Below are positions 1 through 17,189 of a DNA stretch of 17,189 nt, piece after piece. Within the stretch, counting starts at the first letter, position 1. Every line of letters starts with the position of its first letter. Both the position numbers and the translations under genes were made by a program. The DNA lies in assembly GCA_051294375.1 (NCBI GenBank), contig JBJCIZ010000835.1, forward strand, positions 1 to 17,189, in the 5' to 3' direction. Origin of the DNA: Paraspadella gotoi. Lineage: Eukaryota; Animalia; Chaetognatha. Below the pieces are notes generated by a model that was not told the origin of the DNA, did no database searches, and saw only the letters and a list, made by a program, of their open reading frames with translations.

Positions 1-250
1 ACTTTATTTCACGTTAGAAAATCACTTTTCGATTTTCCCTTTACTAAAACATTTTTCTCATTTTACCATCGATTATTTACAAACGTTATAGTAATAACAA
101 ATTACTACCTGATTCAATTTCATTCCGTTAATTATCGACAATTATCGTCAGATTTCAATTCGTCATTAGTGAATCTTTTAAATTCACAAAACAAATTTTA
201 AACAAATCATTTCCCCTTTTCAATCGTTTTTAGAGAAACGATATATAATG
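1..250 (+). repeat. Fragment of the element-B-family 3' untranslated region (noisy copy of about 10817-11095)
   Basis: actttatttcacgttagaaaatcacttttcgattttcc...ttttcaatcgtttttagagaaacgatata aligns by eye, with small indels, to 10817-11095. Confidence 0.9.
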
Positions 251-419
251 CCGGGAAATAGTAGAGAAGTTCACATGTGGCCGAACTCGAACCAAATGCC
301 ATGATAGAGGCTCGCTTGCCGAGGGGGGGTCGCGTGAGAGCCGTTCTCCGCATATACTTGAAAATGTTTCAGTCTTTTCACATTTCTAAGGCTTTTATTT
401 GTTCAGATTTTCAACATAT

Positions 420-3400
420 CGATTCAGCGCAGTCCTAAATAATAACGGATGGTCCTAGTTCCTCCCACTATGCAAGAATATGAGGTGGTAGGAATTGTGA
501 GTCCCTGCCGAGACCTCTCGCGACCGAGGACCTGCCCGGGCCGCTGCCAAACTCGCTGGACCAACGCTCTGGAATTAATAAATTTTGCCAGATTTAAATA
601 TAACAATCGATCATAATTGTCCGTCTCAGCGATGGAAAGGGGAAAATTATACTATCTTACACGACTAATATTCTAAAGGAAAATTCAGTAAAAAACGCTC
701 TGCCTCTTTTTTCTCCGTTCTTCACCCAAACCGACCTCGGCCCTAACCGTTGACGAAATCCGAAAATATCCACCACCCTCACACCCTCGCGCTTTTAAAA
801 TTTTTCCCGTCACAAAAACCCCCCACCCCAAAAAACCAAAAACCACACTAACCCACACCAACACACCCACAAAAAAAGCCTGAGCGACAAAACTAAAACC
901 GAATTTCAGCAACAGAAGAATACCAAAGAAGGAGAGTACAAGGCTCCACAGCGACGACGAATTAACAAGCCATTAACCGACTGCTCGAGACATATCCTCA
1001 AAAACCACCTCGCCGATCCTTCAACCACACCCAGCGATCAATCAACCCGACAAGGCACCAAACGACTTCAGCAAAGCCAGCAAACAAAAAACTCCAAGGT
1101 AGAGATTTGCCTACTACCACAAGAAGTTCGGTGATTCTGCTAAGAGGTGCGAGCCAGGGTTACCGTCAACGCCCGGAAAACTCCAAGGCCGGCGGACGGA
1201 AGTGAACTCCGTTCCGACCGGCCCAATCATCGACAGCCCAAGATGCTCTACTCTTTCGTTCACGAGACAGGGTCAACAAATGTAACTGGTAATTGATGGA
1301 GGAGCAACGGTTTCCATCGCCAACCATCAAAGGCTGATAGAAGAACGAGGAGCAGTCGAGACAAATAAAGGCTCAAATGGCACTCAATCACAAATGCTAT
1401 GGTAACCGAGATGTACAAGGTCACACCTGGAAGGCGGAAATTCCCCTTCACAAGTCACCATAGCAGATGTGACTCAACACTGCTAGGATCAGATTTCCTA
1501 GCTGACACTACTTATGGCACACACACATAAGAGTGGTTTTAATCGACCTGCAAGATTAACAGTAGCATCCCAAGCATCTCGCGCAAAATAAACAGCAGCC
1601 TATTAGATTAAACTTTGTTAACCAAGTCGACGATCCTTTACTAATAAATTATTAGATTCAATACACAGACTTATGTACAACCTTCATTTAAGCCTAAGGA
1701 ACCAGAGAACATGGAGGTAGACGCCACTATAATTCCCATTACGACAGGGGCGCCAGATCCAATCACGAGCACGGCGCCTGGCTCCCGACAAACATCGAAG
1801 TAGCCAGAAAGGAACTGGAACAAAACTATGTCAAATTAGGCATAGCCAGACGCGCCAAGAGCGAATGGGCGTCTCCATCTCCTCGTAGTGAATAAACCTG
1901 ATGGCGGTCATCGAGTCTGCGGCGATTTTCGCCGCTCAACAACGTCAACTAGTGGACGACAAGTACCCCTGTAAAAACTCTAAACGACTTTAACAGCCAA
2001 TCTCAGCGGCAAACGCGCGTTTTTAGCAAAATAGATATTATTAAAGGGTTATCATCAGATCCCCTGTGGCTGAACAAGACGTACAAAAGACCGGCGTTAT
2101 TACTCCATTCGGATTATTGTTTTTTCCCCGTACTCCGTTTGGATTAAAAGAACGCCGGACCAAGATTTCCAGCGTCTAATGGACAGAAATCTTGGACGGC
2201 CTCCCCTACCTGTTCGTCTACATAGACGACATCCTCGTCGCCTCTGACAACCACGAAGAACACGAACACACCTCCGGAGGTCCTTCGACCAGTCTCCACC
2301 AGAACGGCATGGTAGTGAATCGACAGAAAGCAGTCCTAGGCAAACCGTGGAACTGGTATTCTTCTGGCGCTATCGGGTCAACGCAAACGCGCATCCCCCT
2401 CTCCCAGATCGAGTAAGCCGCCGTCAACAGCCACAACTCCCCCGAGCAACAGATCAGAAGAGTTACAAACGCTTTAACTCGGTATGAATTATATATATTA
2501 CAGAGCGATTCATACCGAGGTCAAGCGCACCAATCTATATCCACTCTTTGAAGCCCTCAAATCCAAGACAAAGCCTCGAACTCTCAACTGGACCGAAGAG
2601 TGCCAAAATTCATTTCTAGCGATCAAACAGAGCCTTAGCCGAGGCACCATGCTCTGTCATCCTCGCCCAAACGCGCAACTCGCCGTTACTTCCGACGCCT
2701 CCAACAGCCAGGCGATCGGGGCCGTCCTCGAGCAACGAGGCCTCGCGGCTGGGAACCGTTTGTCCTTTTTCTCAGCAAAACTTCAAAAAGTCAACAACAA
2801 CTCTGGCCGCCCTTCGATCGTGAGTTACTGGCGCGTGGCGAGCAGTGCGCCATTTCAAAACAATGATTGAAGGTCGACACTTACGCTCATAACAACGGAC
2901 AACAAATCTTAGTACCGCGCCTCGCCAAAAAAGCAGAGCTCACACCGCCCGGCAAGACTTACCACAACTCGCCGGATTGCTGAATATACAACGGATTTTC
3001 AATATTTAGCGCAGGCAAGAGCCAACGTTGTGGCGGACTCTCTATTCGAGCACCCAACTCGACACTCGTTTACTGATGGCAGAAAATCCTAGTCCCACTG
3101 TCCTCCTCCCCCTTCCCCCACCCCCCCCCCTCTCTTCCTTCTTTCTCTGCCCCCAAAAACCACTCCACGACCCAATATATCGCTTTCCATCGCTAAGGAA
3201 ATTCCAGCTGAAAAAGCAAGAAATCTCGAAATCATTGCATGCATCAATCTTGCAACATGGAATCGATTTGCAGCAAATGGCTCGAGATCAACCCACTGGA
3301 CCCCGGATTAACAAGCGAATAAGCAGAACGACGTCTCCTCCGGTCTCCGTTTCCCGCCGCGTCCCGATCGGCGAAAACATCTATCACCGTCGACGTGAGC

Positions 3401-5329
3401 AATGGCCCGCCACGCCCAATTTCGTCCCTTCGACGCCTGGCGTCGACGAGTTTTTTGGAAACCATACCACAACTTGGGCCGATCTCTAGGAATCATCGAC
3501 CGGACCCGTCAGACAATGCTGCGACAGAATTCATTTGGCCGTCAGTCCGCTCAGACGTCTCGCGAATGTGGGCTCGGAGAATGTCCTCAGTGTCAACGCG
3601 CCAAAAATCACAAAAGAACACTGTGCGCCTGAAATAGGCACATTCGATCTACCCGAACCGCCGTTTTCTCCACACCTTCACGTGGATATCGTCTCCCGTT
3701 CCCCCATCCAACGGATTCCATTATGTACTGACTATCGTCGACCGTTTTACTCGCTGGCCGACAGCGATCCCACTAAAAGACATTTCTGCCAAGACGGTCG
3801 GTCGACGCTTTCACTCATGGATGGATTTCATCTTTCGGCGTCCTTCAACAGGTAAACGACTGACCTGCGGATCTCAATTTCTGTCAGAAACGGGGAAGCA
3901 GCTACTAAAATCATGGGGAATCCGACCATTGCCCAACTACGGTCATAACCAATCCGAACAGTCTATAACGGCTTAGTTGAACGTTTCCATCGCCGCCTAA
4001 AGGAATCTTCTGATTTGCCTTGGGCGCCGATACTGAAGGAGAATGGTTCTGGCCGGCTTCCCCTGCTCACTTCTAGCAATTCGTACAACATTAAACGCCG
4101 ACATCGGAGCAACACCAGCAGAACTCGTCTATGGAGAATCGATCGCGGTCCCTGGGTGACCTCATATCGCCCAAACCGGAAGTGACGCGCGACGAACGCT
4201 CCAGGCGACGCCAGCACTTCCTAGCAAACCTGCGCCCTCGAAGTCGCGAGACTCCAACCAGGTGCCGAACCATCGACACATCGACAGGCCACCTGCGTAC
4301 AAATAACACACCGAACGCCTAGCTCAACGCCTCCCAACGTCTATGGCGCCGGAGGAGCGCGTGGCCCCGGTGTCTGTTGCGGTCCCCTTAACCTCGGCTC
4401 CTACTAGATTACAGTCGGCTGGCGTCTTCTCGCGAAAATAACCTGACTTATGTCGAATCGTAAATCTCCCCGGACGCGGGTGTACGAAACACGCGTCAAC
4501 ATCGCACCCTCAAGACCAGCTTAAGCGAAGCGGAGTGCTGGACCGACGTGGCCGAATGACGGCCGGCGGCGCCTCCAACCAACGCCCTCCGCTCCACCCC
4601 GCCTCGCCTCCCCGCGCCGGCAGGCGAACCGACGAGTTGGCGAACTCGAGAGACGCACGGCCCGACATCGACGGTCCTCGCTCGAGATAAGTCAGGAAAA
4701 CCTCATTCCAGTCTCTCTCCTCCCTCCTCCTCCCGCCCCCACTCTCTCTCGCCCCACCCTGCTAGTCTTATCCCCTACCTCCCCGCGCTCCACCTAGCCC
4801 AGCCCCAAACGTCGACTCCCTAATCGAAATTCCCCCATTAATATCCACATAAAAATAACAAACCGGGCCAAAATGTAAACAAAAACACTAAACAAATCGC
4901 CCAGACGTCGATAATCTCCCCGGAAACGGAACGACTTCCGTGTGAAGATAACGACGCAGAAACGAACGTTCAGCGGAGACACGCCCAGCAGACCCGCCAT
5001 CGATCTCCCGACTCCGTTCCCCATCCACCCCACCCCCCGCTATTCGCCTTAACTATCATGTTTCATCAGACCAAGGCAGCCCGGAAAGTTTTTTCTTACG
5101 AATGCAATGAATAATTTCATGCGACAAATCAAAATAAACAATCTCGACGCGCCAATCTTATGCACCCCGTTCTGAGGCAAATCCTCCGAGCGTTGCGTCG
5201 ACGAGGAAATTCAAACACCACCGTTCGATTGAACGGGTCAGTAACGTATATTAACTCCTTCTTTTCCAAAAACTTATATATCCTACGCCAGAAATTCACT
5301 CTACATTTCGCAAAGAATCTTTTATTTTC
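420..5329 (+). mobile_element. Copy A: indel-riddled copy of Ty3/Gypsy element B (3' half of gag, pol, part of 3' UTR)
   Basis: Colinear with about 6405-10830: CHCC region about 1108, frameshift hairpin about 1175-1223, protease gatggaggagca about 1295, RT YIDD in ORF 2192-2416, RNase H TSDAS in ORF 2484-2870, integrase remnants about 3400-4500. Differences from B are overwhelmingly short indels. The left boundary is approximate because 420-900 is heavily garbled. Confidence 0.9.
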
Positions 5330-5369
5330 CTCTCAGCCTTGTGCCAGGGTGATCGCTTTGTTACCTACA
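5330..5369 (+). repeat. Remnant of 5' LTR (U5 end) of element B
   Basis: ctctcagccttgtgccagggtgatcgctttgttacctaca matches 11698-11740 (ctctcagccttcgttgccagtgtgattcgctttgttacctaca). It ends in CA and is followed after 2 nt by TGG. Confidence 0.88.
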
Positions 5370-5371
5370 AC

Positions 5372-5384
5372 TGGTGAGCCCAAC
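5372..5384 (+). promoter_or_regulatory. Primer binding site, probably tRNA-Trp
   Basis: TGGTGAGCCCAAC lies 2 nt after the LTR-terminal CA and matches 11/13 positions of the typical tRNA-Trp PBS TGGTGACCCCGAC, the primer associated with CsRn1-clade elements. Confidence 0.75.
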
Positions 5385-5904
5385 TAAAAAGAAATAAAAC
5401 CCAACCTTCTGAAACAAACTAAATCTTGCCTTAGAAACTTACCTTCAAAATAATCTAGCTCTTTCAAAATCGAAATTGCCTTAGATATTTATTCAACACA
5501 ACTAGTCTCATNNNNNNNNNNGACATCTCTCTCCCTGTTTTTTCATCAACAAAATTAATCAAACAACATCGTCGAGGACAAATGCCAAGCGGAGTGGAAC
5601 TTTTCCTCAGGTAGGCAAGCCGTGAGAAGAATTAAGTTGAAGTCTTGCCTCTCTCTAACCACTCCTTTCTCCCCAACTCTCTCTCCTCTCTTTCAACCCA
5701 CTCCCGTCGGATGAGCGGTCCCGCCGGCGGCACCCGCGCCAAACTGGCGCAATCCAGCGGCCAATCCCCTTCAACACGCGACAGCCTAGCGCCGCCTCTC
5801 ATTGGTTTCGGCCGCGGACGACGCACCCCTACGACATCTCCAAAACCTCGAGGCGGCGCCGCCACAAATTAGTCTCCCTTCAAACGCCAAACTCCGTCAG
5901 CGCC

Positions 5905-6825
5905 ATGGCGGAAGCACCTTCAATCGGCGCTGCAGCAGCTGCAGCAGCCGCCGACCCACAGGCGGAACTCGTCCGCGCCCTCGCCGCCACGCTAGCGGCG
6001 TCGCTATCTAGCATTGGCCTCAAGAAGCCAAAACTCCCTGACTTCGACGCCGATAACGTCGAGTTATGGATACAACGCGTCGAGGCCGCCTACACGCGCG
6101 CTGGCACCGTCGCCGCTCGCGAGAAATTCGCCTATCTCGAAGACAAATTCGCCGTCGACTTAAACCCTCGAATAAATGAATTTCTATTCGGACCTGCCAC
6201 CGACGACCGCTGGAATTCTTTCATCGACTATCTCCGCTCTGAGTATGGTCGCACGCGGTCGCAGCAGGCGTCAGCTTTAATCGACGGCATCCGCCGCGAA
6301 GGACGCCGCCCATCTCAATTACTGGCAGTGATGAAAGAAAAAGCCGGAAAAATCACAGTCGACGACATCATGAAGGAGCTCCTGCTGCGCGAGCTCCCCA
6401 CTGAAGTTCAGCGCAGTCTAGCAGAAAGAGTGGAATTAGTCGACGCCGAGGCCGCCGCCCAACTCGCTGATGCATATTTCGATCGCGAAGGCAAAGTTCT
6501 TCACCCAACGACCTCGGCTACCGCTTTCGCCGTCGACACTCCGATTCAGCCATTGATGCCAGAGGAGAGACAGCTCCACAGCGACGACGTTAACGCCATT
6601 AACCGCTCGAGACATCCTCAACCACCTCGCCGATCCTTCAACCCACCCAGGCGATTCAATCAACCCGACAAGGCACCAAACGACTTCAGCAACAGCCAGC
6701 AAACAAAAACCTCCAAGGTAGAGATTTGCTACTACCACAAGAAGTTCGGTGATTCTGCTAAGAGGTGCGAGCCAGGTTGTTACCGTCAACGCCCGGAAAA
6801 CTCCAAGGCCGGCGGACGGAAGTGA
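5905..6825 (+). CDS. gag: Gag protein (306 aa) with CHCC nucleocapsid motif
   Basis: Intact ORF with strong Kozak context (cgccATGg). N-terminal KLPDFDADNVELWIQRVEA resembles retrotransposon Gag. C-terminal CYYHKKFGDSAKRCEPGC (6727-6780) is C-X2-H-X9-C-X3-C. Confidence 0.93.
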   Translation: MAEAPSIGAAAAAAAADPQAELVRALAATLAASLSSIGLKKPKLPDFDADNVELWIQRVEAAYTRAGTVAAREKFAYLEDKFAVDLNPRINEFLFGPATDDRWNSFIDYLRSEYGRTRSQQASALIDGIRREGRRPSQLLAVMKEKAGKITVDDIMKELLLRELPTEVQRSLAERVELVDAEAAAQLADAYFDREGKVLHPTTSATAFAVDTPIQPLMPEERQLHSDDVNAINRSRHPQPPRRSFNPPRRFNQPDKAPNDFSNSQQTKTSKVEICYYHKKFGDSAKRCEPGCYRQRPENSKAGGRK

Positions 6826-7835
6826 ACTCCGTTCCGACCGGCCCAATCATCGACAGCCAAGATGCTCTACTCTTCGTTCACGACAGGGTCAACAAATGTA
6901 ACTGGTTAATTGATGGAGGAGCAACGGTTTCCATCGTTCCACCATCAAAGGCTGATAGAGAACGAGGAGCAGTCGAGACAAAGCTAAAGGCTGCAAATGG
7001 CACTTCAATCACATGCTATGGTTACCGAGATGTACAGGTCCACCTCGGAAGGCGGAAATTCCCCTTCACAGTCACCATAGCAGATGTGACTCAANNNNNN
7101 NNNNGATCAGATTTCCTAGCTGACCACTACTTGGCACCCAACCATAGAGATGGGTTTTTAATCGACCTGCAAGATTACAGTAGCATCCCAGCATCTCGCG
7201 CAAATAAACAGCAGCCTATTAGATTAAACTTTGTTAACCAAGTCGACGATCCTTACTATAAATTATTAGATTCATACACAGACNNNNNNNNNNCTTCATT
7301 TAAGCCTAAGGAACCGAAACATGGAGTGCGCCACTATATTCCTACGACAGGGCGCCCAGTCCAATCACGAGCACGGCGCCTGGCTCCCGACAAACTCGAA
7401 GTAGCCAGAAAGGAACTGGACAAACTATGTCAATTAGGCATAGCCAGACGCGCCAAGAGCGAATGGGCGTCTCCTCTCCTCGTAGTGAATAAACCTGATG
7501 GCGGTCATCGAGTCTGCGGCGATTTTCGCCGCCTCAACAACGTCACTGTGGACGACAAGTACCCTGTAAAAACTCTAAACGACTTTAACGCCAATCTCAG
7601 CGGCAAACGCGTTTTTAGCAAAATAGATTTATTAAAGGGTTATCATCAGATCCCTGTGGCTGAACAAGACGTACAAAAGACCGGCGTTATTACTCCATTC
7701 GGATTATTCGTTTTTCCCCGTACTCCGTTTGGATTAAAGAACGCCGGCCAAGATTTCCAGCGTCTAATGGACGAAATCTTGGACGGCCTCCCCTACCTGT
7801 TCGTCTTACATAGACGACATCCTCGTCGCCTCTGA
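6765..7835 (+). CDS. pol: Pol part 1: aspartic protease plus N-terminal reverse transcriptase (probably translated as Gag-Pol fusion)
   Basis: WLIDGGATVSIV protease site; RT motifs SEWASPLLVV, RVCGDFRRLN, FSKIDLLKGYHQIPV, TPFGL, PFGLKNA. The frame is broken by one extra T at 7806-7807, just before YIDD. Confidence 0.93.
   Translation: MRARLLPSTPGKLQGRRTEVNSVPTGPIIDSQDALLFVHDRVNKCNWLIDGGATVSIVPPSKADRERGAVETKLKAANGTSITCYGYRDVQVHLGRRKFPFTVTIADVTQXXXXSDFLADHYLAPNHRDGFLIDLQDYSSIPASRANKQQPIRLNFVNQVDDPYYKLLDSYTDXXXXSFKPKEPKHGVRHYIPTTGRPVQSRARRLAPDKLEVARKELDKLCQLGIARRAKSEWASPLLVVNKPDGGHRVCGDFRRLNNVTVDDKYPVKTLNDFNANLSGKRVFSKIDLLKGYHQIPVAEQDVQKTGVITPFGLFVFPRTPFGLKNAGQDFQRLMDEILDGLPYLFVLHRRHPRRL
6795..6843 (+). 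promoter_or_regulatory. Putative -1 programmed ribosomal frameshift signal (gag-pol)
   Basis: G_GAA_AAC in the gag frame (6795-6801), a 5-nt spacer, then stem-loop GGCCGG-CGGACGGA / TCCGTTCCG-a-CCGGCC (6807-6843) with the gag TGA in the loop. pol is in the -1 frame and overlaps gag. Confidence 0.8.
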
Positions 7836-8933
7836 CAACCACGAAGAACACGAACAGCACCTCCGGGAGGTCTTCGACCGTCTCCCCAGAACGGCATGGT
7901 AGTGAATCGACAGAAATGCGTCTTAGGCAAACCGGAACTGGATTTTCTGGGCTATCGGGTCAACGCGAACGGCATCTCCCTCTCCCAGATCGAGTAGCCG
8001 CCGTCAACGCCACAACTCCCCCAGCACGATCAAAGAGTTACAACGCTTCCTCGGTATGATTAATTATTACAGGCGATTCATACCGAGGTCAGCGCACCAT
8101 CTATATCCACTCTTTGAAGCCCTCAAATCCAAGACAAAGCCTCGAACTCTCAACTGGACCGAAGAGTGCCAAAATTCATTTCTAGCGATCAAACAGGCCT
8201 TAGCCGAGGCCACCATGCTCTGTCATCCTCGCCCAAACGCGCAACTCGCCGTTACTTCCGACGCCTCCAACACCGCGATCGGGGCCGTCCTCGAGCAACG
8301 AGGCCCTCGCGGCTGGGAACCGTTGTCCTTTTTCTCAGCAAAACTTCAAAAAAAGTCAACAACTCTGGCCGCCCTTCGATCGTGAGTTACTGGCGGCGTG
8401 GCGAGCAGTGCGCCATTCAAAAACAATGATTGAAGGTCGACATTTCACGCTCTACACGGACCACAAATCATTAGTACCCGCCCTCGCCAAAAAAGCAGAG
8501 CCTACACCCCCGGCAGACTTACCAACTCGCCGGGATTGCTGAATATACAACGGATATTTCAATATTTAGCAGGCAAAGCCAACGTTGTGGCGGACTCTCT
8601 ATCTCGACCCAACTCGACACTCGTTACTGATGCAAATCCTAGTCCCACTTCTCCTCCTCCCCCTTCCCCCACCCCCCCCCTCTCTTCCCTTCTTTCTCTG
8701 CCCCCAAAAAACCTCCACCCCCAATTATCGCTTCCATCGCTAAGGAAATTCCAGCTGAAAAACAAGAAATCTCGAAATCATTGCAGCATCAATCTTGCAA
8801 CATGGAATCGATTTGCAGCAAATGGCTCGAGATCAACCCCTGGACCCGGATTACCAGCGAATAAGCAACGACGTCTCCTCCGGGTCTCCGTTTCCGCCGC
8901 GTCCGATCGGGCGAAACATCTATCACCGTCGAC
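7807..8933 (+). CDS. pol: Pol part 2: RT C-terminus, RNase H and linker (several apparent 1-nt frameshifts)
   Basis: TAC ATA GAC GAC (YIDD) at 7807-7818; LQRFLGMINYYRRFIP; TSDASNTAIGAVLEQ; FTLYTDHKSL; GKANVVADSLSR. These are spread across frames by single-base indels. Confidence 0.85.
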
Positions 8934-10238
8934 GTGAGCAATGGCCCGCCACGCCCATTCGTCCCTTACGCCCTGGCATCGACGCGAGTTTTTGAAACCA
9001 TCCACAACTTGGGCCATCCTGGAATCGACCGGACCCGTCAGACAATCTGCGACAAATTCATTTGGCCGTCAGTCCGCTCAGACGTCTCGAAATGGGCTCG
9101 AGAATGTCCTCAGTGTCAACGCGCCAAAATCACAAAGAACACTGTGCCTGAAATAGGCACATTCGATCTACCCGACCGCCGTTTCTCACACCTTCACGTG
9201 GATATCGTCTCCCTTCCCCCATCCAACGGATTCCATTATGTACTGACTATCGTCGACCGTTTTACTCGCTGGCCGACAGCGATCCCACTAAAAGACATTT
9301 CCGCCAAGACGGTCGTCGACGCTTTCACTCATGGATGGATTTCATCTTTCGGCGTCCCTTCAACAGTAACGACTGACCGCGGATCTCAATTTCTGTCAGA
9401 AACGTGGAAGCAGCTACTAAAATCATGGGGAATCCGCCATTGCCCAACTACGTCATACCATCCACAGTCTAACGGCTTAGTTGAACGTTTCCATCGCCGC
9501 CTAAAGGAATCTCTGATTGCCTTGGGCGCCGATACTGAAGGAGAATGGTTCTGGCGGCTTCCCTGCTCACTTCTAGCAATTCGTACAACATTAAAACCCG
9601 ACATCGGAGCAACACCAGCAGAACTCGTCTATGGAGAATCGATCGCGGTCCCTGGGGACCTCATATCCGCCCAAACCGGAAGTGACGCCGACGAACGCCT
9701 CCAGCGACGCCGCACTCTAGCAAACCTCCGCCTCGAAGTCGCGAGACTCCAACCAGTGCCGACATCGACACATCGACAGCCTCGCGTACAAATACCCGAC
9801 GCCTTACTCAACGCCTCCCACGTCTATGTGCGCCGAGGAGGCGTGGCCCCGTGTCTTGCGGCCCCTTACCTCGGTCCTTACCGCGTCGTCTCTCGCGAAA
9901 ACCTGACTTATCGAATCGAAATTCCCGGACGCGGTGTCGAAAGCGTCAACATCGCACGCCTCAAGCCGGCTTACGAAGCGGACGACGACGTCAATGACGC
10001 CGCGGCGCCTCCACGCACGCCCTCGCCTCCACCCTCGCCTCCCCCGCCCGGCAGGCGACCCGGTTGGCGAACTCGAGCGCCGGCCCCGACATCGCGAGTC
10101 CTTCGATCGAATAATGCAGAAAACTCATCCGCTCCTCCTGCTTCATCTCCTCCCCCCCCCTCCTCTCTCTCCCCCCCCTCGTCCTTCCCCTACCCTCCCC
10201 CTGCTCCACCCCAGTCCCCCAAACCGTCGACTCCCTAA
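8934..10238 (+). CDS. pol: Pol part 3: integrase (HHCC, DDE core, GPY/F module, Pro-rich tail)
   Basis: IHNLGHPG...CPQC zinc-binding motif; HVDIV, TDRGSQF and NGLVERFHRRL catalytic motifs; APYLGPYRV; no recognisable chromodomain. Confidence 0.95.
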   Translation: MSNGPPRPFVPYALASTRVFETIHNLGHPGIDRTRQTICDKFIWPSVRSDVSKWARECPQCQRAKITKNTVPEIGTFDLPDRRFSHLHVDIVSLPPSNGFHYVLTIVDRFTRWPTAIPLKDISAKTVVDAFTHGWISSFGVPSTVTTDRGSQFLSETWKQLLKSWGIRHCPTTSYHPQSNGLVERFHRRLKESLIALGADTEGEWFWRLPCSLLAIRTTLKPDIGATPAELVYGESIAVPGDLISAQTGSDADERLQRRRTLANLRLEVARLQPVPTSTHRQPRVQIPDALLNASHVYVRRGGVAPCLAAPYLGPYRVVSRENLTYRIEIPGRGVESVNIARLKPAYEADDDVNDAAAPPRTPSPPPSPPPPGRRPGWRTRAPAPTSRVLRSNNAENSSAPPASSPPPPSSLSPPSSFPYPPPAPPQSPKPSTP

Positions 10239-10772
10239 TTTTCGAATTTTCCCCGTTTAGTTTTTTTTTAACACAATAATACAAAATATAAAACAACCGC
10301 GTGCGGAAAAAATGTAAACCCAAAACATAAACAACATCTCTCTCGTCCGCTCCCTTCCTCCATCCCCAACGTCGATATAATCCGGAAAACGGAAGCGCTT
10401 CCGAGTCGAATGAGAATAACGACGCAGAACTACTATCTAGACAGATCTCTATCACGAACGTCAGCGGGACCCTACTTCACCAGCAACGACACCCACGCGC
10501 ATCGATCCCCACTTCCGTTTCCCCATCCCCAACCCCCCCTATTCGCCGCCTACACATTCCTCATAGACCAACGGCCCGTAAAATTTTTCTTATCGAGCAC
10601 AAATAAATTTTCATTCGCGCAAATCACATATAAACATTCGACTCGCCAATCTTATGCACCCTGTTCTGAGGGCAGATCCTTCCAGCGGTGCGTCGACGAG
10701 GGATTCCAAACAACACACTTCGATGAACGGGGTCAGTTCAGTTTTAATTATTCTCCTTCTTTTTCCAAAAAT

Positions 10773-10858
10773 CTTTATTTCCACTTTCCAGAAATCACTC
10801 TTCGATTTTCGAAAGAACTTTATTTTCACTGTTCTTAGAAATCACTTTTTCGATTTTC
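10773..10858 (+). repeat. Imperfect two-copy tandem repeat (about 45 bp period) in 3' UTR
   Basis: ctttatttccactttccagaaatcactcttcgattttc (10773-10810) versus ctttattttcactgttcttagaaatcactttttcgattttc (10818-10858). Confidence 0.8.
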
Positions 10859-11222
10859 CTTTTACTAAAAACATTTTTCCATTTTACCTATCGAAATTAT
10901 TTTACAAACTGTATATATGTAATAACCAAATTTACTACCTGATTCACATTTCAATTCCGTTTAATTATCGACATATTATCGTTCAGATTTCAATTCGTCA
11001 TTTAGTTGAAATCTTTTTAAATTCACAAACAAAATTTTCTTTTAAAACAATCATTTTCCCCTTTTTCAATCGTTTAGAAGAAACTGATATATGTATAACA
11101 TTTATATTTTTTTATTTTTTTTTTTTTTCTCTCTGTCAACGTTTTTAAAAACTGTTAAAATAATTTGAAATTTAGGACAAAAGCCACGTCCAAAAATTAT
11201 TTTTCCCCGCTTTTTTTATCTT

Positions 11223-11231
11223 GGGGGCGTT
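11223..11231 (+). promoter_or_regulatory. Short G-rich polypurine-tract-like site of element B
   Basis: tctt-GGGGG-cgtt immediately precedes TGTTAG. Element C has a similar tct-GGGGG-a before TGTGG on the minus strand. Confidence 0.55.
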
Positions 11232-11740
11232 TGTTAGATACTATCCCCTGGCACATTAAATTAATTATCTGATTTTATTTATGTATTTATCGGCCAATAT
11301 ATCATATTTATTTATTTATTATTATTAATAACAAGTACACAATATCAATTCTTTATAGTTTTCAACTACATTCGATTCGAATCCATTATAATTATTTAAA
11401 GTAATTATAAATAACTGTTTCACATCGCCAGGATTCGATACCACGCGTACACTTAGTCCGGCCATTATCAGTAATCCTCTTTTAACCGCTTGCCACTAAA
11501 ACCATTTGATAAAAGATGATTCGATCATCCTTTTAGAATGAATCAGGCAGTTGAAATAATTGCCCTTTGTTTTATATCAATCATCAAACCCCAAGCGGCA
11601 TCGTTATATAATCAACCAAGTTGGATCCATCTGGTGATGGATTATGCATTGACTGTTTACTTAGAGTTGATTCGGTTATGTATTTCACTTTCTTATGCTC
11701 TCAGCCTTCGTTGCCAGTGTGATTCGCTTTGTTACCTACA
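11232..11740 (+). repeat. 3' LTR of element B (about 509 bp)
   Basis: The right end is fixed by identity to 5330-5369, the copy followed by the PBS. The left end is inferred from the G-tract plus TGTTAGATA, an imperfect inverted match to terminal TACCTACA. Confidence 0.75.
11421..11504 (-). other. tRNA-like (Ser/Leu-type spacing) A-box/B-box segment within LTR B, antisense to the element
   Basis: Minus strand reads tagTGGCAAGCGGTTAA...cgcgtGGTaTCGAATCCtggcg, resembling tRNA GTGGCCGAGCGGTTAA and GCGTGGGTTCGAATCC. No convincing cloverleaf is visible. Confidence 0.55.
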
Positions 11741-11892
11741 GGGTAGTTAGGGTTATGGGTTTAGGTTAGGGGTTTTAGGTTTAGGGGTTAGGGTTAGGGT
11801 TAGTGTTTAGGTTTTAGGTTAGGTTAGGTTTAGGGTTTAGGTTTAGGTTTAGGGTTAGGGTTAGGTTAGGTTAGGGTATAGGTAGGCGGTTA

Positions 11893-11929
<37 letters not shown>
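11741..11929 (+). repeat. Degenerate telomeric repeat tract (TTAGGG)n with TTAGG/TTTAGGG variants, about 190 bp
   Basis: Directly visible, e.g. ttagggttagggtttagggttagggttagggttag. The G-rich strand is +, and the tract is internal to the window. Confidence 0.95.
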
Positions 11930-11932
<3 letters not shown>

Positions 11933-12802
11933 TGTTTAGTATGGCGGGAAAACAAACTCACTTTGACGCCCATTTAAGTCGAAGGTCTTTGAGACGAGCG
12001 CGGTGTGTTGCGGGCGGGGTTTCAAGAGATCGTAGAGTCGGATTTTGAAGGGTGATAAGAACGGGCGAGACTCTGGGAGAAGCTTTCGTTGTAAGTGGTG
12101 GTAGAGATTGGCGCACGTGACGCCTAAGTAATTGGCGTTCGAAGTTTTCGAGAGGAGTTTTATTTTGTGAATTGTCTTCAGACTTAGGAATAAAATGTCT
12201 TTAACCAACTTGTTGGTTATTTTAGTAAAAGTATGACTTATAAATTTCAAAGTTAATATTCATCTGCTTTTCATCGAAGCAATATTGAGCACTATATGCA
12301 CAAAATACAATGCAATGCAATATTCTGTTTCAAATAATAATAAAAGGAATAAACGACATGTCAATTGTTGAGACTACTCTAAAGTTATAATTATGCACAG
12401 TTTTCTATTTATTTGTTTATGATATGGGAGATTGAAAGTAAATGGATTATAACTATAACAATGTTTGAAAGCTGATTGAATGAATTTCTAATCAGATTGA
12501 TCTTTTGTTTAGTAAAAAGGGTAACAAGAGTAAAGAGTTAAAAACGTTTTTTTAAAGTAAATATAATCTTTTAACGAGGTAAATTTAACCTCAGGTGGTG
12601 GCGACGCTGGTAAAGCAATGATATGATAACATCTGGTCCGAGTTCGAGCGCGTTGTCCGTCATGTTTTTATTTATTTTATAATTAAATTAATTAAATCTA
12701 TTCAAAGTAAACTAATCGAAATGTTTCTAGTAAGAATATGTGAACAGTTATGGCAGATAACTGTTCTCATCAACGTGGAGGTATAACGGGTCTGAATCCA
12801 CA
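11930..12802 (-). repeat. Putative 3' LTR of element C (about 870 bp)
   Basis: Minus strand: tctGGGGGa then TGTGG at 12802, ending ...ctaaacAACA at 11930 next to the telomeric repeats. AATAAA signals are present on the minus strand. No second LTR copy is available in the window, so the boundaries are inferred. Confidence 0.55.
12591..12669 (+). other. tRNA-like A-box/B-box segment with T5 run within putative LTR C, antisense to the element
   Basis: gGTGGCGACGCTGGTAAAGCA (cf. tRNA GTGGCGCAGCTGGTAGAGCA), then GGTCCGAGTTCGAGC (B-box-like) at tRNA-like spacing, followed by TTTTT at 12665-12669. Confidence 0.55.
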
Positions 12803-13361
12803 TCCCCCAGATCGAACATCACGGTTTGCGGAAGACGTTGGTTTATCAAGGTTAGCATATTTGATTTCGGAATATTTTTAAATTACTACATAGTACATAT
12901 ATACATAAAAGGAAAATAAAGTTTTGAATTGAAGGTAATACTTAAGTCAATAGGTGACGGAGTTACTTCGTGTTAATTTGGTTTTCGAAGCGGATTTATT
13001 GTTTGTTATTGAGAAGTTCGATGGCTGGGGACTGTGAGAAACGTTTCGAATGGTCGGCGTGGCCTTGCGAGATTCTTTTCCGTTGGCCGCCGGCGGCCAG
13101 AAGGTGGCGCTGGAGACGTTGGAGGAGCGCCGCAAGGTTATATGATTAGGTGCCGTGGCCGCGTCTGTGTGGGCGTTGTCTTTTCTTATTAGCGGGCGTG
13201 CTGGAGAGAAACGGAAAGTGGGCGTGGCTTCGGGTGACGGCGCTGGGGCGTCGTCGGCGTTGAGATTTCCATTCGAGGCATTTCTGACGACGTCGCGTTC
13301 GTCGTGTCTGTCGCTCGTCGTCGTCAGTTGAATCCTCTCTTATCGCAGTTTTGATTTTGAT

Positions 13362-15617
13362 TCATGATAGGGCTTTGTTCCGAAGTGATGGCGAGGTTGC
13401 TGATCGCGTTTGTCGAGACGTCGGTTGAGGCTGACGCGTTCGAACGCCTGGGCGACGGCCCGGAGGAGGCGGCGACGGTGGTGGGGAAGGCTGAGAGGCT
13501 CTTTCTTCGCCTTCTTCGTCACGCCACAGTATCGCTGGCTTTATTCTGGAGATGGAAATTAGTTCGACGCCGCGTCCGGGTATTTCGACTTTGAAATTCA
13601 AATTATCACGGGAGATTACGCGATAGGGCCCGTGATAAGGTGCCGTTAACGGAGGGTTTACCCCTGCGCGCTGGACGAAAACATGGGTGGCGTCGCTGAG
13701 CGTTTCTGGCAAGTAGAGTCGAGGCACTCGATGCGTCGACGTTTCGGTGGGCTGGAGGCGTTCGACCTCGACTCGGAGATTGTCGCGGAGGATTCGACGC
13801 TGATCCTGGAGATGGCTGTCGTCGATCGGAGGTGGAAGGGCGTCTCCTGGGACGGCGAGTCCTTCTCCGAAGACCATTTCCGCTGGAGATGCTCCGATGT
13901 CGGGTTTAATAGTTGTGCGAATCGCCAGGAGCGCTGAGGGCAACCTCCAGAACCATTGGTGGGGCTCGGTGTCGCCGAGGGCCATCAGCGCCTCTTTTAG
14001 GCGACGGTGGAAGCGCTCCACCAATCCATTCGCTTGCGGGTGATACGCTGTCGTTTGGTGGTGCTTGATGCCCCATGTCTGCGTAAGCTGTGTCCATATT
14101 GTTGTCGAAAATTGGGCGCCCCTGTCGGTCGTGATTGCCGCCGGGATTCCGAATTGAGAGATCCACCCGTGAGCTATGGCGTCGACTACTGATGTCGTTG
14201 ACATGTCTTTCATCGGGATGGCGGCGGGCCATCTCGAGAATCTGTCTACTACAGTGAGTAATGAATTATATCCGTTGGACACGGGCATAATCGTTATGTC
14301 CACGTTGAGGTGCTGGAACCGCTTCGCTGGGACTGCAAATTCTCCGATGTTGGGGGTCACGTGACGAGTGACCTTTGCACGTTGACATGGGAGGCACTCT
14401 CTCGCCCATCTGGTGGCGTCCGCCTTCAACGATGGCCAAACGAATTTTGAAGCGATTGTTTCTCGAGTTCTTGCTACTCCGGGATGGCCCAGGCCATGGA
14501 TAGCGTCGAAGATTTTTTTACGCCAAGACTCGGGGACAAACGGACGTGCAGGACCATTGGAAACGTCGACGAAAAGTTCTTGGTTCCCAACGGTGACCTT
14601 TCGAAACTGGAGGCCGGTCCTGGCGTCGTTGGCAAGGCGCTGGAAGTCCCGATCAAGCGTTTGGTGGCGCGCCATTTCTTCGAGATCGATTCCCTCTTGT
14701 CCTATGGCGTTTATGGTCGCGTGAAGGTCTTGCGTTTTCTCCTGAGGCAAAGGTCGGTCGACGGCGGCGATTGGCGCCGGATTCGGTCTCGAGAGGGCGT
14801 CGGCGACCACGTTTGCTTTGCCACGGATATGACGAATATCCGTGGTGAATTCGGATATCACCGACAGCTGGAAATTGTGTCGAGTCGTTTGAGGCTCGGC
14901 TCGTTTATGTAGCGCATGGATTAATGACTGATGATCCGTATATAGCGTGAAGGATCTTCCTTCAAGCCAATGCCGGAAGTGGCGCACCGCTCTGAAGGCG
15001 CCATATAATTCTCGATCGAACGGTGGCCAACGTCGTTGAGATTCGTCCAATTTGGCGGAGAAGAATGCCAGGGGTTCCCACCCCTGGGGCCCTCTCTGCT
15101 CAAGAACGGCGCCGACGGCGATGTCGGATGCATCGGTGGTTAGCGCCAACTGCGCGTTAGTCTGTGGGTGTCGGAGGAGGGCTGCATTCGCCAAGGCCTC
15201 CTTGACGGCCTCGAAAGATTCTGCACATTTAGTAGACCAGTTTAATTGCTTTGGTTTGCCCGCTAAGATGTCGTATAAGGCGCCGCGCATGTGGAGCGGT
15301 GTCTTGCGAAATAAATCATGGCGGATAGAGATTATTCGTTACCATCGCCTAAGAAGCGGTATGGCGATTTCTTTTTCACCGTTGTTGATGGAGTTGTAGT
15401 GGCGCGGAATAGCTTCCGGATTTTGGGGGATAGGTTTAGAACTCCAGTCGCGTGCGCACTAAGGTATCCCAAAGAACTCGAGGGGATGTATTTGAGCCCA
15501 GAAGTGCACTGTGCTTTCTATTGACGACTAAGCCATTGTCAGCGAGAGAATCGAAAACTGCCTTGAGGTCTCTGAGATGTTCCTCTTGGTCGGCGCTTGC
15601 GACGAGAATATCGTCCA
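13362..15617 (-). CDS. pol: Pol of element C: RT C-terminus (frameshifted about 15290-15520), RNase H and integrase (intact 642-aa ORF 13362-15290)
   Basis: DDILVASADQEEHLRDL beside the gap; TTDASDIAVGAVLEQ, FTLYTDHQSL, NVVADALSR, IHGLGHPG..CLPC, TDRGAQF, NGLVERFHRRL, APYHGPYRV. Confidence 0.93.
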
Positions 15618-15717
15618 NNNNNNNNNNNNNNNNNNNNNNNNNNNNNNNNNNNNNNNNNNNNNNNNNNNNNNNNNNNNNNNNNNNNNNNNNNNNNNNNNNN
15701 NNNNNNNNNNNNNNNNN
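15618..15717. other. 100-N assembly gap (other N runs: 5512-5521, 7095-7104, 7284-7293, 16237-16520)
   Basis: Runs of N in the sequence. Exactly 100 N is a common convention for gaps of unknown size. Confidence 0.97.
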
Positions 15718-17189
15718 ATCTCGAGGAGATGGCGCGCCACCAAACGCTCGATCGGGACTTCCAGCGCCTCGCTAACGACGCCAGGACCGGCCTCCAGTTT
15801 CGAAAGGTCACCGTTGGGAACCAAGAACTTTTCGTCGACGTTTCCAATGGCCCCGCACGTCCGTTTGTCCCCGAGTCTTGGCGTAAAAAAATCTTCGACG
15901 CTATCCATGGCCTGGGCCATCCCGGAGTAGCAAGAACTCGAGAAACAATCGCTTCGAAATTCGTTTGGCCATCGTTGAAGGCGGACGCCACCCGATGGGC
16001 GAGGGAGTGCCTCCCATGTCAACGTGCGAAGGTTACTCGTCACGTGACCCCCAACATCGGAGAATTTGCAGTCCCAGCGAAGCGGTTCCAGCACCTCAAC
16101 GTGGACATAACGATCATGCCCATGTCCAACGGATACAGTTCATTACTCACCGTGGTAGACCGATTTTCGAGATGGCCCGCTGCCATCCCGATGAAGGACA
16201 TGTCAACGACATCAGTAGTCGACGCCATAGCTCACGNNNNNNNNNNNNNNNNNNNNNNNNNNNNNNNNNNNNNNNNNNNNNNNNNNNNNNNNNNNNNNNN
16301 NNNNNNNNNNNNNNNNNNNNNNNNNNNNNNNNNNNNNNNNNNNNNNNNNNNNNNNNNNNNNNNNNNNNNNNNNNNNNNNNNNNNNNNNNNNNNNNNNNNN
16401 NNNNNNNNNNNNNNNNNNNNNNNNNNNNNNNNNNNNNNNNNNNNNNNNNNNNNNNNNNNNNNNNNNNNNNNNNNNNNNNNNNNNNNNNNNNNNNNNNNNN
16501 NNNNNNNNNNNNNNNNNNNNAAACTACAGCTTACCACCCGCAAGCGAATGGATTAGTGGAGCGTTTCCACCGTCGCCTAAAAGAGGCGCTGGTGGCACTC
16601 GGCGACAGCGAGCCCCATCAATGGTTCTGGAGGTTGCCCTCAGCGCTCCTGGCGATTCGTACAACTATTAAACCCGACATCGGAGCATCTCCGGCGGAAA
16701 TGGTCTTCGGAGAAGGACTCGCCGTCCCAGGAGACGTCCTGCCTCCTCCAATCGACGACAACCATCTCCAGGATCAGCGTCGAATCCTCCGCGACAATCT
16801 CCGAATCGAAGTCGAACGCCTCCAACCCACGGAAACGTCGACGCATAGAGTGCCTCGAGTTTACTTGCCAGAAACGCTCAGCGACGCCACCCACGTATTC
16901 GTCCAGCGCGCGGGAGTAAATCCCCCACTAACAGCACCCTACCACGGGCCTTATCGCGTGATCTCCCGCGACAATTTAAATTTCAAAGTCGAAATACCTG
17001 GACGCGGCGTCGAACTAATTTCCATCTCCAGAATAAAGCCAGCGATACTGTGGCGCGACGAAGAAGGCGAAGAAAGAGCCTCTCAGCCTTCCCCGCCACC
17101 GTCGCCGCCTCCTCCGGGCCGACGCCCAGGCGTTCGAACGCGTCAGCCCCAACCGACGTCTCGACAAACGCGATCAGCAACTCGCCAAC
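15718..17189 (+). CDS. pol: Element D: partial pol (integrase) of a sister copy of element C, split by an N gap and running off the window
   Basis: LEEMARHQTLDRDF...VVDAIAH (to 16236). After the gap, the open frame from 16523 reads TTAYHPQANGLVERFHRRL...GPYRV...PSPPPSPPPPGRRPG and is nearly identical to C in inverted orientation. Confidence 0.92.

What the first reader, a model, noticed from the sequence alone, without database searches (positions are those of the whole stretch)
11698..11945. Two different Gypsy subfamilies end tail-to-tail directly on a (TTAGGG)n tract: candidate telomere-repeat-targeting LTR retrotransposons
Seen: the LTR terminus of B, fixed independently by the 5330-5369 copy followed by the PBS, is joined without a spacer to telomeric repeats (..CCTACA|GGGTAGTTAGGG). 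About 190 bp later the repeats end at ..GGGTTAG|TGTTG, the inferred 3' LTR end of the oppositely oriented, diverged element C. Known: the well-described telomere-repeat or chromosome-end specialists are non-LTR or Penelope-like (TRAS/SART, HeT-A/TART/TAHRE, Athena), while yeast Ty5 targets silent chromatin rather than the repeat itself. Inference: two independent insertions into one short repeat tract point to a CsRn1-like LTR lineage that prefers telomeric repeats and builds subtelomeric arrays.
Basis: partly seen in the sequence, partly recalled or inferred. Interest (0 to 1): 0.85.

Follow-up and report, generated by a model that had tools for sequence, protein, structure and literature searches.

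The report
Gypsy retrotransposons aimed at telomeric repeats
Two distantly related retrovirus-like jumping genes sit in the same short run of telomere repeat (TTAGGG), both joined at the same position of the six-letter unit, which likely means they aim at telomere repeats, a habit otherwise described for other classes of jumping genes.

Summary
The feature is real, with one correction. Gypsy elements B (+) and C (-), integrases 59% identical, flank a 192-nt TTAGGG-type tract (11741-11932) in a noisy stretch of the assembly.

Short-read contigs from public runs fix the LTR ends. In one run C's LTR end also abuts repeat ending GGGT, so the true C junction is 11932|11933, not 11929|11930. GGGT is the only phase of TTAGGG with symmetric flanks (TA-N4-TA), which suits a two-fold symmetric integrase and both orientations. 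Two junctions have the wrong polarity for telomerase healing.

B meets the sequence criteria tested for the CsRn1 clade. Seven distant relatives with full LTR pairs have ordinary flanks.

Limits: all flanks may come from two insertions and one study; tables were truncated; C's far flank, raw reads and chromosome position were not seen. One same-clade relative shows no repeat in 1.5 kb after its LTR start. Ten literature searches found no telomere-repeat-specific LTR element, and the scan's earlier notes held nothing like it. Verdict: likely repeat-targeting LTR families (0.65).

The parts
5330..5369 (+). last 40 nt of B's 5' LTR; the rest of this LTR and its 5' flank are missing in the window
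   Evidence: run X4 holds flank, whole LTR, PBS and 4,790 nt of interior in one 5,270-nt contig
5372..5381 (+). primer-binding site TGGTGAGCCC, tRNA-Trp type
   Evidence: one mismatch to TGGTGACCCC, the commonest form (21 hits) in 80 related loci; the same variant occurs in L031; clade feature in PMC2582038
5905..6825 (+). B gag with CX2HX9CX3C knuckle
   Evidence: motif present in 47 of 52 Gag homologs
6762..10238 (+). B pol (protease, RT, RNase H, integrase with GPY module), in several frame pieces in this assembly
10029..10076 (+). integrase tail motif PPSPPPPGRRPGxRTR of B; untested candidate tether
   Evidence: shared with C; 43 of 102 GPY-bearing sequences; all carriers fall in the B/C clade
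11223..11231 (+). B polypurine-tract region
   Evidence: X1 and X7 contigs run from the 3' UTR into the LTR and stop at 11259
11232..11740 (+). B 3' LTR, TG...CA; about 470 nt in accurate contigs, 509 in the noisy window
   Evidence: contig breaks at both ends in X1 and X7, read from record lengths
11741..11744 (+). GGGT, 3' copy of B's target-site duplication
   Evidence: window; matching 5' copy in X4 and X5 contigs
11741..11932 (+). telomere-type tract, G-rich strand on +, 192 nt as read
11929..11932 (+). last four tract letters before C; read GTGT in the noisy window, GGGT in the X5 contig; likely one copy of C's duplication
   Evidence: the other copy was not seen
11933..12802 (-). C 3' LTR, about 870 nt as read
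   Evidence: start after a G-rich tract; all 4 runs break 34 letters beyond 12774; terminus at the tract fixed by X1, X7, X5
13362..15338 (-). C pol, open stretch of 658 aa (RNase H, integrase, GPY, tail motif at 13434-13481); C is cut by the N gap at 15618
943..5329 (+). copy A: indel-ridden near-identical copy of B's gag end, pol and 3' UTR
   Evidence: against B: 9 substitutions and 127 indel letters in one stretch, 4 and 47 in another
15718..17189 (+). C', pieces of a second C-family copy beyond the gap
   Evidence: 22 substitutions in 519 nt and 40 in 670, almost no indels

Best explanation
B and C are two Ty3/Gypsy LTR retrotransposon families with CsRn1-clade features that sit in TTAGGG repeat at the same phase (GGGT), and they likely reached it by targeted integration rather than by chance, healing or mis-assembly. 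Shown: the LTR boundaries; telomeric repeat on both sides of B-family LTRs with a matching 4-bp GGGT; telomeric repeat at one end of C, in the opposite orientation and the same phase. Established for the class: tRNA-primed reverse transcription and integrase joining of both LTR ends with a staggered cut. Inferred, in two tiers. First, a tether brings the integration complex to telomeric repeat, through a telomere-bound host protein or the repeat DNA itself; the conserved integrase tail is the candidate and is untested. Second, the symmetric integrase picks the one phase with symmetric flanks, TA-GGGT-TA, which allows either orientation. Repeated insertion would break a telomeric array into short tracts between elements, as seen here.
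For: C's end has the same phase in X5. Of the contigs shown that run past an LTR terminus into non-element DNA, 3 of 3 enter telomeric repeat. X4's 5,270-nt contig passes both ends of the B LTR unbroken, which suggests that no long unique flank competes there (inference from assembler behaviour). Summed depth puts B LTRs at about 2.5-5 times and C LTRs at about 6-7.5 times incidental single-locus-like contigs, so several copies probably exist; X5's C contig implies a flank depth of 21-129 against a background of about 12 (rough arithmetic; depth is not a copy number). GGGT is the only one of 6 phases with symmetric flanking dinucleotides, and palindromic target motifs are the rule for LTR elements (PMC3276498, passages). 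B and C are not resolved as sisters, so these are two old families. Control: 0 of 7 distant relatives with full LTR pairs have telomeric flanks; 5 of 7 have exact 4-bp duplications and 0 of 7 have TA on both sides.
Against: All flanks seen could belong to just two insertions, the same two as in the window. All three flank-bearing contigs come from one study (two samples); the other study only fixes the boundaries. Only 24 of 63 and 24 of 44 loose-end rows were shown. A minor B-like LTR variant continues for 203 (X4) and 86 (X5) unshown letters past 11689; this may be a non-telomeric flank or a subfamily's interior. C's far flank was never seen, so its duplication is one-sided. No contig was laid past 11740 into the tract; B's 3' flank rests on the noisy window alone. 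AT-rich DNA drops out in X4 and X5, which could hide unique flanks. L002, inside the B/C clade, has no telomeric repeat in 1,517 nt after its putative LTR start. The window was picked for being odd. The tether is unsupported by any test.
Confidence: 0.65

Rival explanations
1. Regional preference only. The families favour or survive in subtelomeric heterochromatin (Ty5-like), two copies happened to fall in the repeat, and any extra telomere-flanked copies come from duplication of that subtelomeric segment.
For: Only two insertions are strictly required. A shared phase arises 1 time in 6 by chance, more often with a mild palindromic preference. Ty5 (PMC4700185, passages) and Retand (PMC12477314, passages) are precedents. 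There are unseen variant flanks.
Against: No non-telomeric flank among the 3 flank-bearing contigs shown; the unbroken X4 contig; X5's C contig stops 13 nt into the repeat, where TTAGGG and TTTAGGG units first differ, which suggests more than one telomeric flank (inference).
Confidence: 0.2
2. The families only prefer a short TA-N4-TA motif and insert genome-wide; the telomeric copies were picked out by the scan.
For: Short palindromic, AT-rich target motifs are typical of Gypsy elements. The motif is common in any genome (inference). L002 may have an ordinary flank.
Against: The families look low-copy, yet every flank shown is telomeric. Two low-copy families both hitting a rare repeat is unlikely without a tether.
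Confidence: 0.09
3. Assembly artefact: a chimeric long read or gap fill joined unrelated pieces through a telomeric stub.
For: The assembly is poor here: five N gaps, copy A with indel noise, B's 5' LTR cut to 40 nt, and no joint 10827-11698 listed in 4 runs. No accurate contig spanning the tract was seen.
Against: Independent short-read contigs show LTR/repeat junctions for both families. Noise is continuous from B's 3' UTR through C's LTR with no N gap between 7293 and 15618, as expected of one long-read fill (inference). This rival can remove the adjacency of B and C but not the junctions.
Confidence: 0.04
4. Telomerase healing of broken element ends, or an end-to-end fusion.
For: B's 3' junction alone (LTR end followed by G-rich repeat) has the polarity of a healed end.
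Against: At B's 5' junction and at C's junction the G-rich strand runs into the element, the opposite of healing. B has a matching 4-bp duplication. The tract has no TTAGGG/CCCTAA inversion. Breaks would not fall exactly on LTR termini.
Confidence: 0.02

Closest known systems
CsRn1 clade of Ty3/Gypsy (CsRn1, PwRn1, AgCR; PMC2582038, passages)
   Same: Gag CX2HX9CX3C, Trp-type PBS, 4-bp duplication, GPY/F module, no chromodomain or env found
   Different: Insertion in telomeric repeat at a fixed phase; longer LTRs than the 7 full-pair relatives here (170-240 nt); protease D-G-G in place of DT/SG; distinct integrase tail. No target preference of this kind in the passages read.
TRAS/SART (Bombyx), MoTeR, FoTeR, Cnl1 (PMC4700185, PMC12857005, PMC8869645, passages)
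   Same: Sit inside telomeric repeats and split them into short tracts
   Different: Non-LTR, target-primed, endonuclease-based; FoTeRs lie in one orientation. B and C are LTR elements with a DDE integrase, a 4-bp duplication and both orientations.
Ty5 of Saccharomyces (PMC4700185, passages)
   Same: LTR element directed to telomeric regions by an integrase targeting domain binding a host protein (Sir4); the model for the inferred tether
   Different: Copia type; targets silent chromatin, including mating loci, not the repeat unit at a fixed phase
Retand (Silene) and TelKA (bdelloid rotifers) (PMC12477314, PMC5408684, passages)
   Same: Gypsy-type LTR elements; Retand is subtelomere-specific
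   Different: No insertion into the repeat itself in the passages read; TelKA's target is not described there
Athena/Terminon Penelope-like elements and HeT-A/TART/TAHRE
   Same: Retroelements at chromosome ends
   Different: Attach to or replace the end; no integrase and no internal duplication

Membership tests
Ty3/Gypsy LTR retrotransposon | pol order PR-RT-RH-IN | tested here: met
   B: RVT_1, RT_RNaseH, Integrase_H2C2, rve in that order; C: RNase H then integrase
Ty3/Gypsy LTR retrotransposon | TG...CA LTRs with PBS and PPT | tested here: met
   B fully; C only 3' LTR and PPT, its 5' part is not in the window
CsRn1 clade | Gag CX2HX9CX3C | tested here: met
   B; 47 of 52 Gag homologs. C's gag is not in the window.
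CsRn1 clade | tRNA-Trp primer-binding site | tested here: met
   B has a one-mismatch variant of the form commonest in relatives; host tRNA not available, no tRNA in the window
CsRn1 clade | 4-bp target-site duplication | tested here: met
   B: GGGT on both sides, from different data sets (window). In a 6-bp repeat the length is fixed only modulo 6. C: one side only.
CsRn1 clade | GPY/F module, no chromodomain, no env | tested here: met
CsRn1 clade | protease DT/SG motif | tested here: not met
   B has D-G-G, as do 14 of 18 motif hits in fetched proteins; described as a conventional motif, not a clade marker
CsRn1 clade | groups with named CsRn1 references in a pol tree | not tested
   the tree held no named CsRn1, PwRn1 or Kabuki sequence
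TRAS/SART/MoTeR-type telomere-specific non-LTR elements | non-LTR structure with APE or REL endonuclease | tested here: not met
   LTRs and rve integrase; works like them in target only
Telomere-repeat-specific element (behaviour) | junctions directly in the repeat at a fixed phase | tested here: met
   3 junction types, all GGGT (window)
Telomere-repeat-specific element (behaviour) | most or all copies so placed | tested here: inconclusive
   3 of 3 flank-bearing contigs shown; tables cut; variant flanks unseen
Telomere-repeat-specific element (behaviour) | located at chromosome ends | not testable with these tools
   no genome held; only contigs of short-read runs offered
Ty5-like tethered LTR element | integrase targeting domain binding a telomeric host protein | not tested
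   host proteins not available; the tail motif is only a candidate

The most novel reading that the evidence does not exclude
The whole clade of about 100 unnamed Gypsy families around B and C is an integrase-based telomeric-repeat specialist, the LTR counterpart of TRAS/SART. It is tethered to telomeres by its conserved integrase tail and inserts at the symmetric TA-GGGT-TA phase across many hosts.
Probability: 0.2. Interest if true: 0.92.

Novelty: new variant of a known kind. Interest (0 to 1): 0.76.

Why it matters
In the reviews read, elements that insert into telomeric repeats are non-LTR or Penelope-like, and LTR targeting works through chromatin or transcription proteins (Ty3, Ty5). 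An LTR family that inserts inside the repeat at one phase would add a separate route to the telomere niche. It would make a precise question testable: does a retroviral-type integrase read the repeat, or a telomere protein? It would also explain broken, hard-to-assemble chromosome ends in its host. The families look low-copy and the clade is large and unnamed, so the habit could easily have been missed.

Tried and rejected
No whole genome was held, so no copy census was possible.

IMG/VR: 4 distant loci. A repeat-plus-LTR-terminus pattern gave 33 loci, 0 with a Gypsy pol; uninformative.

JGI/ENA metagenome loci: 0 of 84 had telomere-type tandem motifs at their ends, one had an internal 2-unit hit. 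76 of the 80 are only 37-46% identical, and 3 of the 4 closer ones stop before an LTR.

B and C LTR bodies do not align above shuffled controls (score 87 against a shuffled maximum of 98).

Window 247-942 matches nothing else in the window above shuffles.

No joint supporting the A/B junction was listed in 4 runs; contigs cannot prove absence.

The shared five-letter LTR terminus of B and C is not special: L045, L046 and L063 have it too.

The idea that the repeat is part of the LTR was rejected: LTR ends are also joined to the PBS and the PPT.

The protein atlas did not answer. Earlier scan notes held nothing similar.

No structure or complex was predicted, because no host partner was available. 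Supplements were not read; Repbase entries and subscription papers are outside the library and may describe such a family.

Full report
WINDOW. The window is a stretch of a eukaryotic draft assembly with five N gaps. No whole genome is held. It contains Ty3/Gypsy pieces: copy A (943-5329), element B (5330-11740, +), a repeat tract, element C (11933-15617, -) and, beyond a gap, pieces of a second C-family copy, C'. Pfam gives RT, RNase H and integrase in Gypsy order for B, and RNase H plus integrase for C; Gag and one off-frame stretch had no hit (4 of 6 proteins hit). B and C integrases are 59% identical over 352 residues, and their LTR bodies do not align above shuffles.

ASSEMBLY QUALITY. 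A differs from B almost only by indels (9 substitutions against 127 indel letters; 4 against 47), the signature of a raw long read. C' differs from C by 4-6% substitutions and is a separate copy. Short-read contigs show that the window is also insertion-rich from B's 3' UTR through C's LTR. Junction letters in the window therefore cannot be taken at face value.

THE TRACT. It runs 11741-11932, G-rich strand on +, without inversion. It holds 14 of the window's 17 TTAGGG hexamers; 0 of 200 shuffles reach 17. Units are mixed, partly from noise.

INDEPENDENT DATA. One search found 8 runs of one organism in 2 studies, all kept as contigs. I laid 4 of the 8 on each LTR. For B, X1 and X7 contigs begin exactly at the LTR's TG (11232, from record lengths) and end exactly at 11740, and separate contigs run from the 3' UTR into the LTR start. 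In X4 and X5 the LTR contig continues upstream into telomeric repeat for 10 and 29 letters, ending in GGGT. The X4 contig (5,270 nt) holds that flank, the LTR, the primer-binding site and 4,790 nt of interior, so it is a 5' LTR.

For C, X1 and X7 contigs stop 19 letters before 11955, at a TG terminus. The X5 contig has 13 more letters; the 11 shown are repeat ending in GGGT. A second C-like LTR subfamily ends at the same terminus.

HOW MUCH THIS SHOWS. Of the contigs shown that leave an LTR for non-element DNA, 3 of 3 enter telomeric repeat. But 39 of 63 and 20 of 44 loose-end rows were not shown, all three contigs come from one study, and they may be the window's own two insertions. Indirect signs point to more. 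Depth suggests several LTRs per genome, and the flank words of X5's C contig seem deeper than single copy (21-129 against about 12, depending on the assumed LTR depth; the tool warns that depth is no copy number). The X4 contig passes both LTR ends without a break, which a long unique flank would normally force (inference; AT-rich dropout weakens it). Against: a minor B-like LTR variant runs on for 203 and 86 unshown letters in X4 and X5, and no contig was laid from B's 3' end into the tract (repeat-rich contigs may be filtered).

MECHANISM. Healing by telomerase would put the G-rich strand after a broken end. At B's 5' junction and at C's junction it runs into the element instead, and B has a duplication, so these are integrase products. 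In TTAGGG a 4-bp duplication leaves the same dinucleotide on both sides, and only GGGT leaves a self-complementary one, TA. LTR target motifs are as a rule palindromes that extend beyond the duplication (PMC3276498, passages). This accounts for one phase and two orientations (inference). TA-N4-TA alone is too common to explain the choice of telomeric repeat, so a tether is inferred, as for Ty5 and Sir4 (PMC4700185, passages). B and C share an integrase tail motif, PPSPPPPGRRPGxRTR, found in 43 of 102 GPY-bearing sequences (of 122 examined). It is a candidate only.

RELATIVES. The closest proteins are unnamed metagenome products at about 55-64% identity. A FastTree integrase tree of 188 rows (12 of 121 protein hits and 6 of 84 loci dropped for short coverage) places B and C, unresolved relative to each other, in a 102-row clade with support 100 that holds all 46 motif carriers. 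Seven distant relatives with complete LTR pairs lie outside it: none has telomeric flanks, 5 have exact 4-bp duplications and none has TA on both sides. So the habit is not general to the wider group. Within the clade only L002 reaches an LTR, and it has no telomeric repeat in 1,517 nt after the putative start; the LTR end is unknown. This counts against clade-wide targeting.

MEMBERSHIP. Against the CsRn1 features in PMC2582038 (passages), B has the CHCC knuckle, a Trp-type PBS with one mismatch, a 4-bp duplication and GPY, with no chromodomain or env found. Its protease reads D-G-G. No named reference was in the tree. C's gag and PBS are not in the window, so its assignment rests on integrase kinship.

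LITERATURE. Ten searches (listings and abstract starts) and keyword passages of 12 papers (PMC3026039, PMC12471100, PMC7998251, PMC4700185, PMC2582038, PMC12857005, PMC8869645, PMC2678813, PMC5408684, 10.1101/2022.12.06.519325, PMC3276498, PMC12477314) showed telomeric-repeat targeting only for non-LTR and Penelope-like elements, and regional preference for Ty5 and Retand. No paper was read whole and no supplement was read; Repbase and subscription journals are not covered. The names Kabuki and Boudicca are recalled, not from a call. The scan's earlier notes held nothing similar.

VERDICT. A real pair of integrase-made insertions at one phase of telomeric repeat by two old Gypsy families. Family-level targeting is the most likely reading (0.65); regional preference with two lucky hits is the main rival (0.2). 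New variant of a known kind; interest 0.76.

Noticed in passing
window 943-5369: Copy A is an indel-ridden duplicate of B joined straight to the last 40 nt of B's LTR, skipping about 870 nt; probably a misplaced long-read gap fill, not a true tandem copy.
   Followed up: partly
window 1-246: A fairly accurate piece of a B-family 3' UTR (matches 10839-11092 and an X5 loose end), so another B-family copy or duplicate lies just left of the window.
   Followed up: partly
window 247-942: About 700 nt with no match elsewhere in the window above shuffles; unexplained.
   Followed up: partly
window 11955-11992, run X7 record 26: A second, deep C-like LTR subfamily with the same terminus; its flanks were not shown.
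   Followed up: no
window 11566-11689, runs X4 and X5: A minor diverged B-like LTR that continues for 203 and 86 unshown letters.
   Followed up: no
X5 contig before window 11235: A TTTAGGG unit among TTAGGG units in accurate data; the host's telomerase may make mixed repeats.
   Followed up: no
integrase tails of P0043, P0046, P0061, P0083, P0111, P0114, P0116, P0118, P0119: Relatives outside the B/C clade carry an RGRP, AT-hook-like core (label recalled) at the place where the clade has PPSPPPPGRRPGxRTR.
   Followed up: no
window 6762-7832 and fetched proteins: Protease active site D-G-G in B and in 14 of 18 motif hits among relatives, instead of D-T/S-G.
   Followed up: partly
window 15718-17189: C' is a separate C-family copy (4-6% diverged) facing C across an N gap; its orientation is not reliable.
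   Followed up: partly
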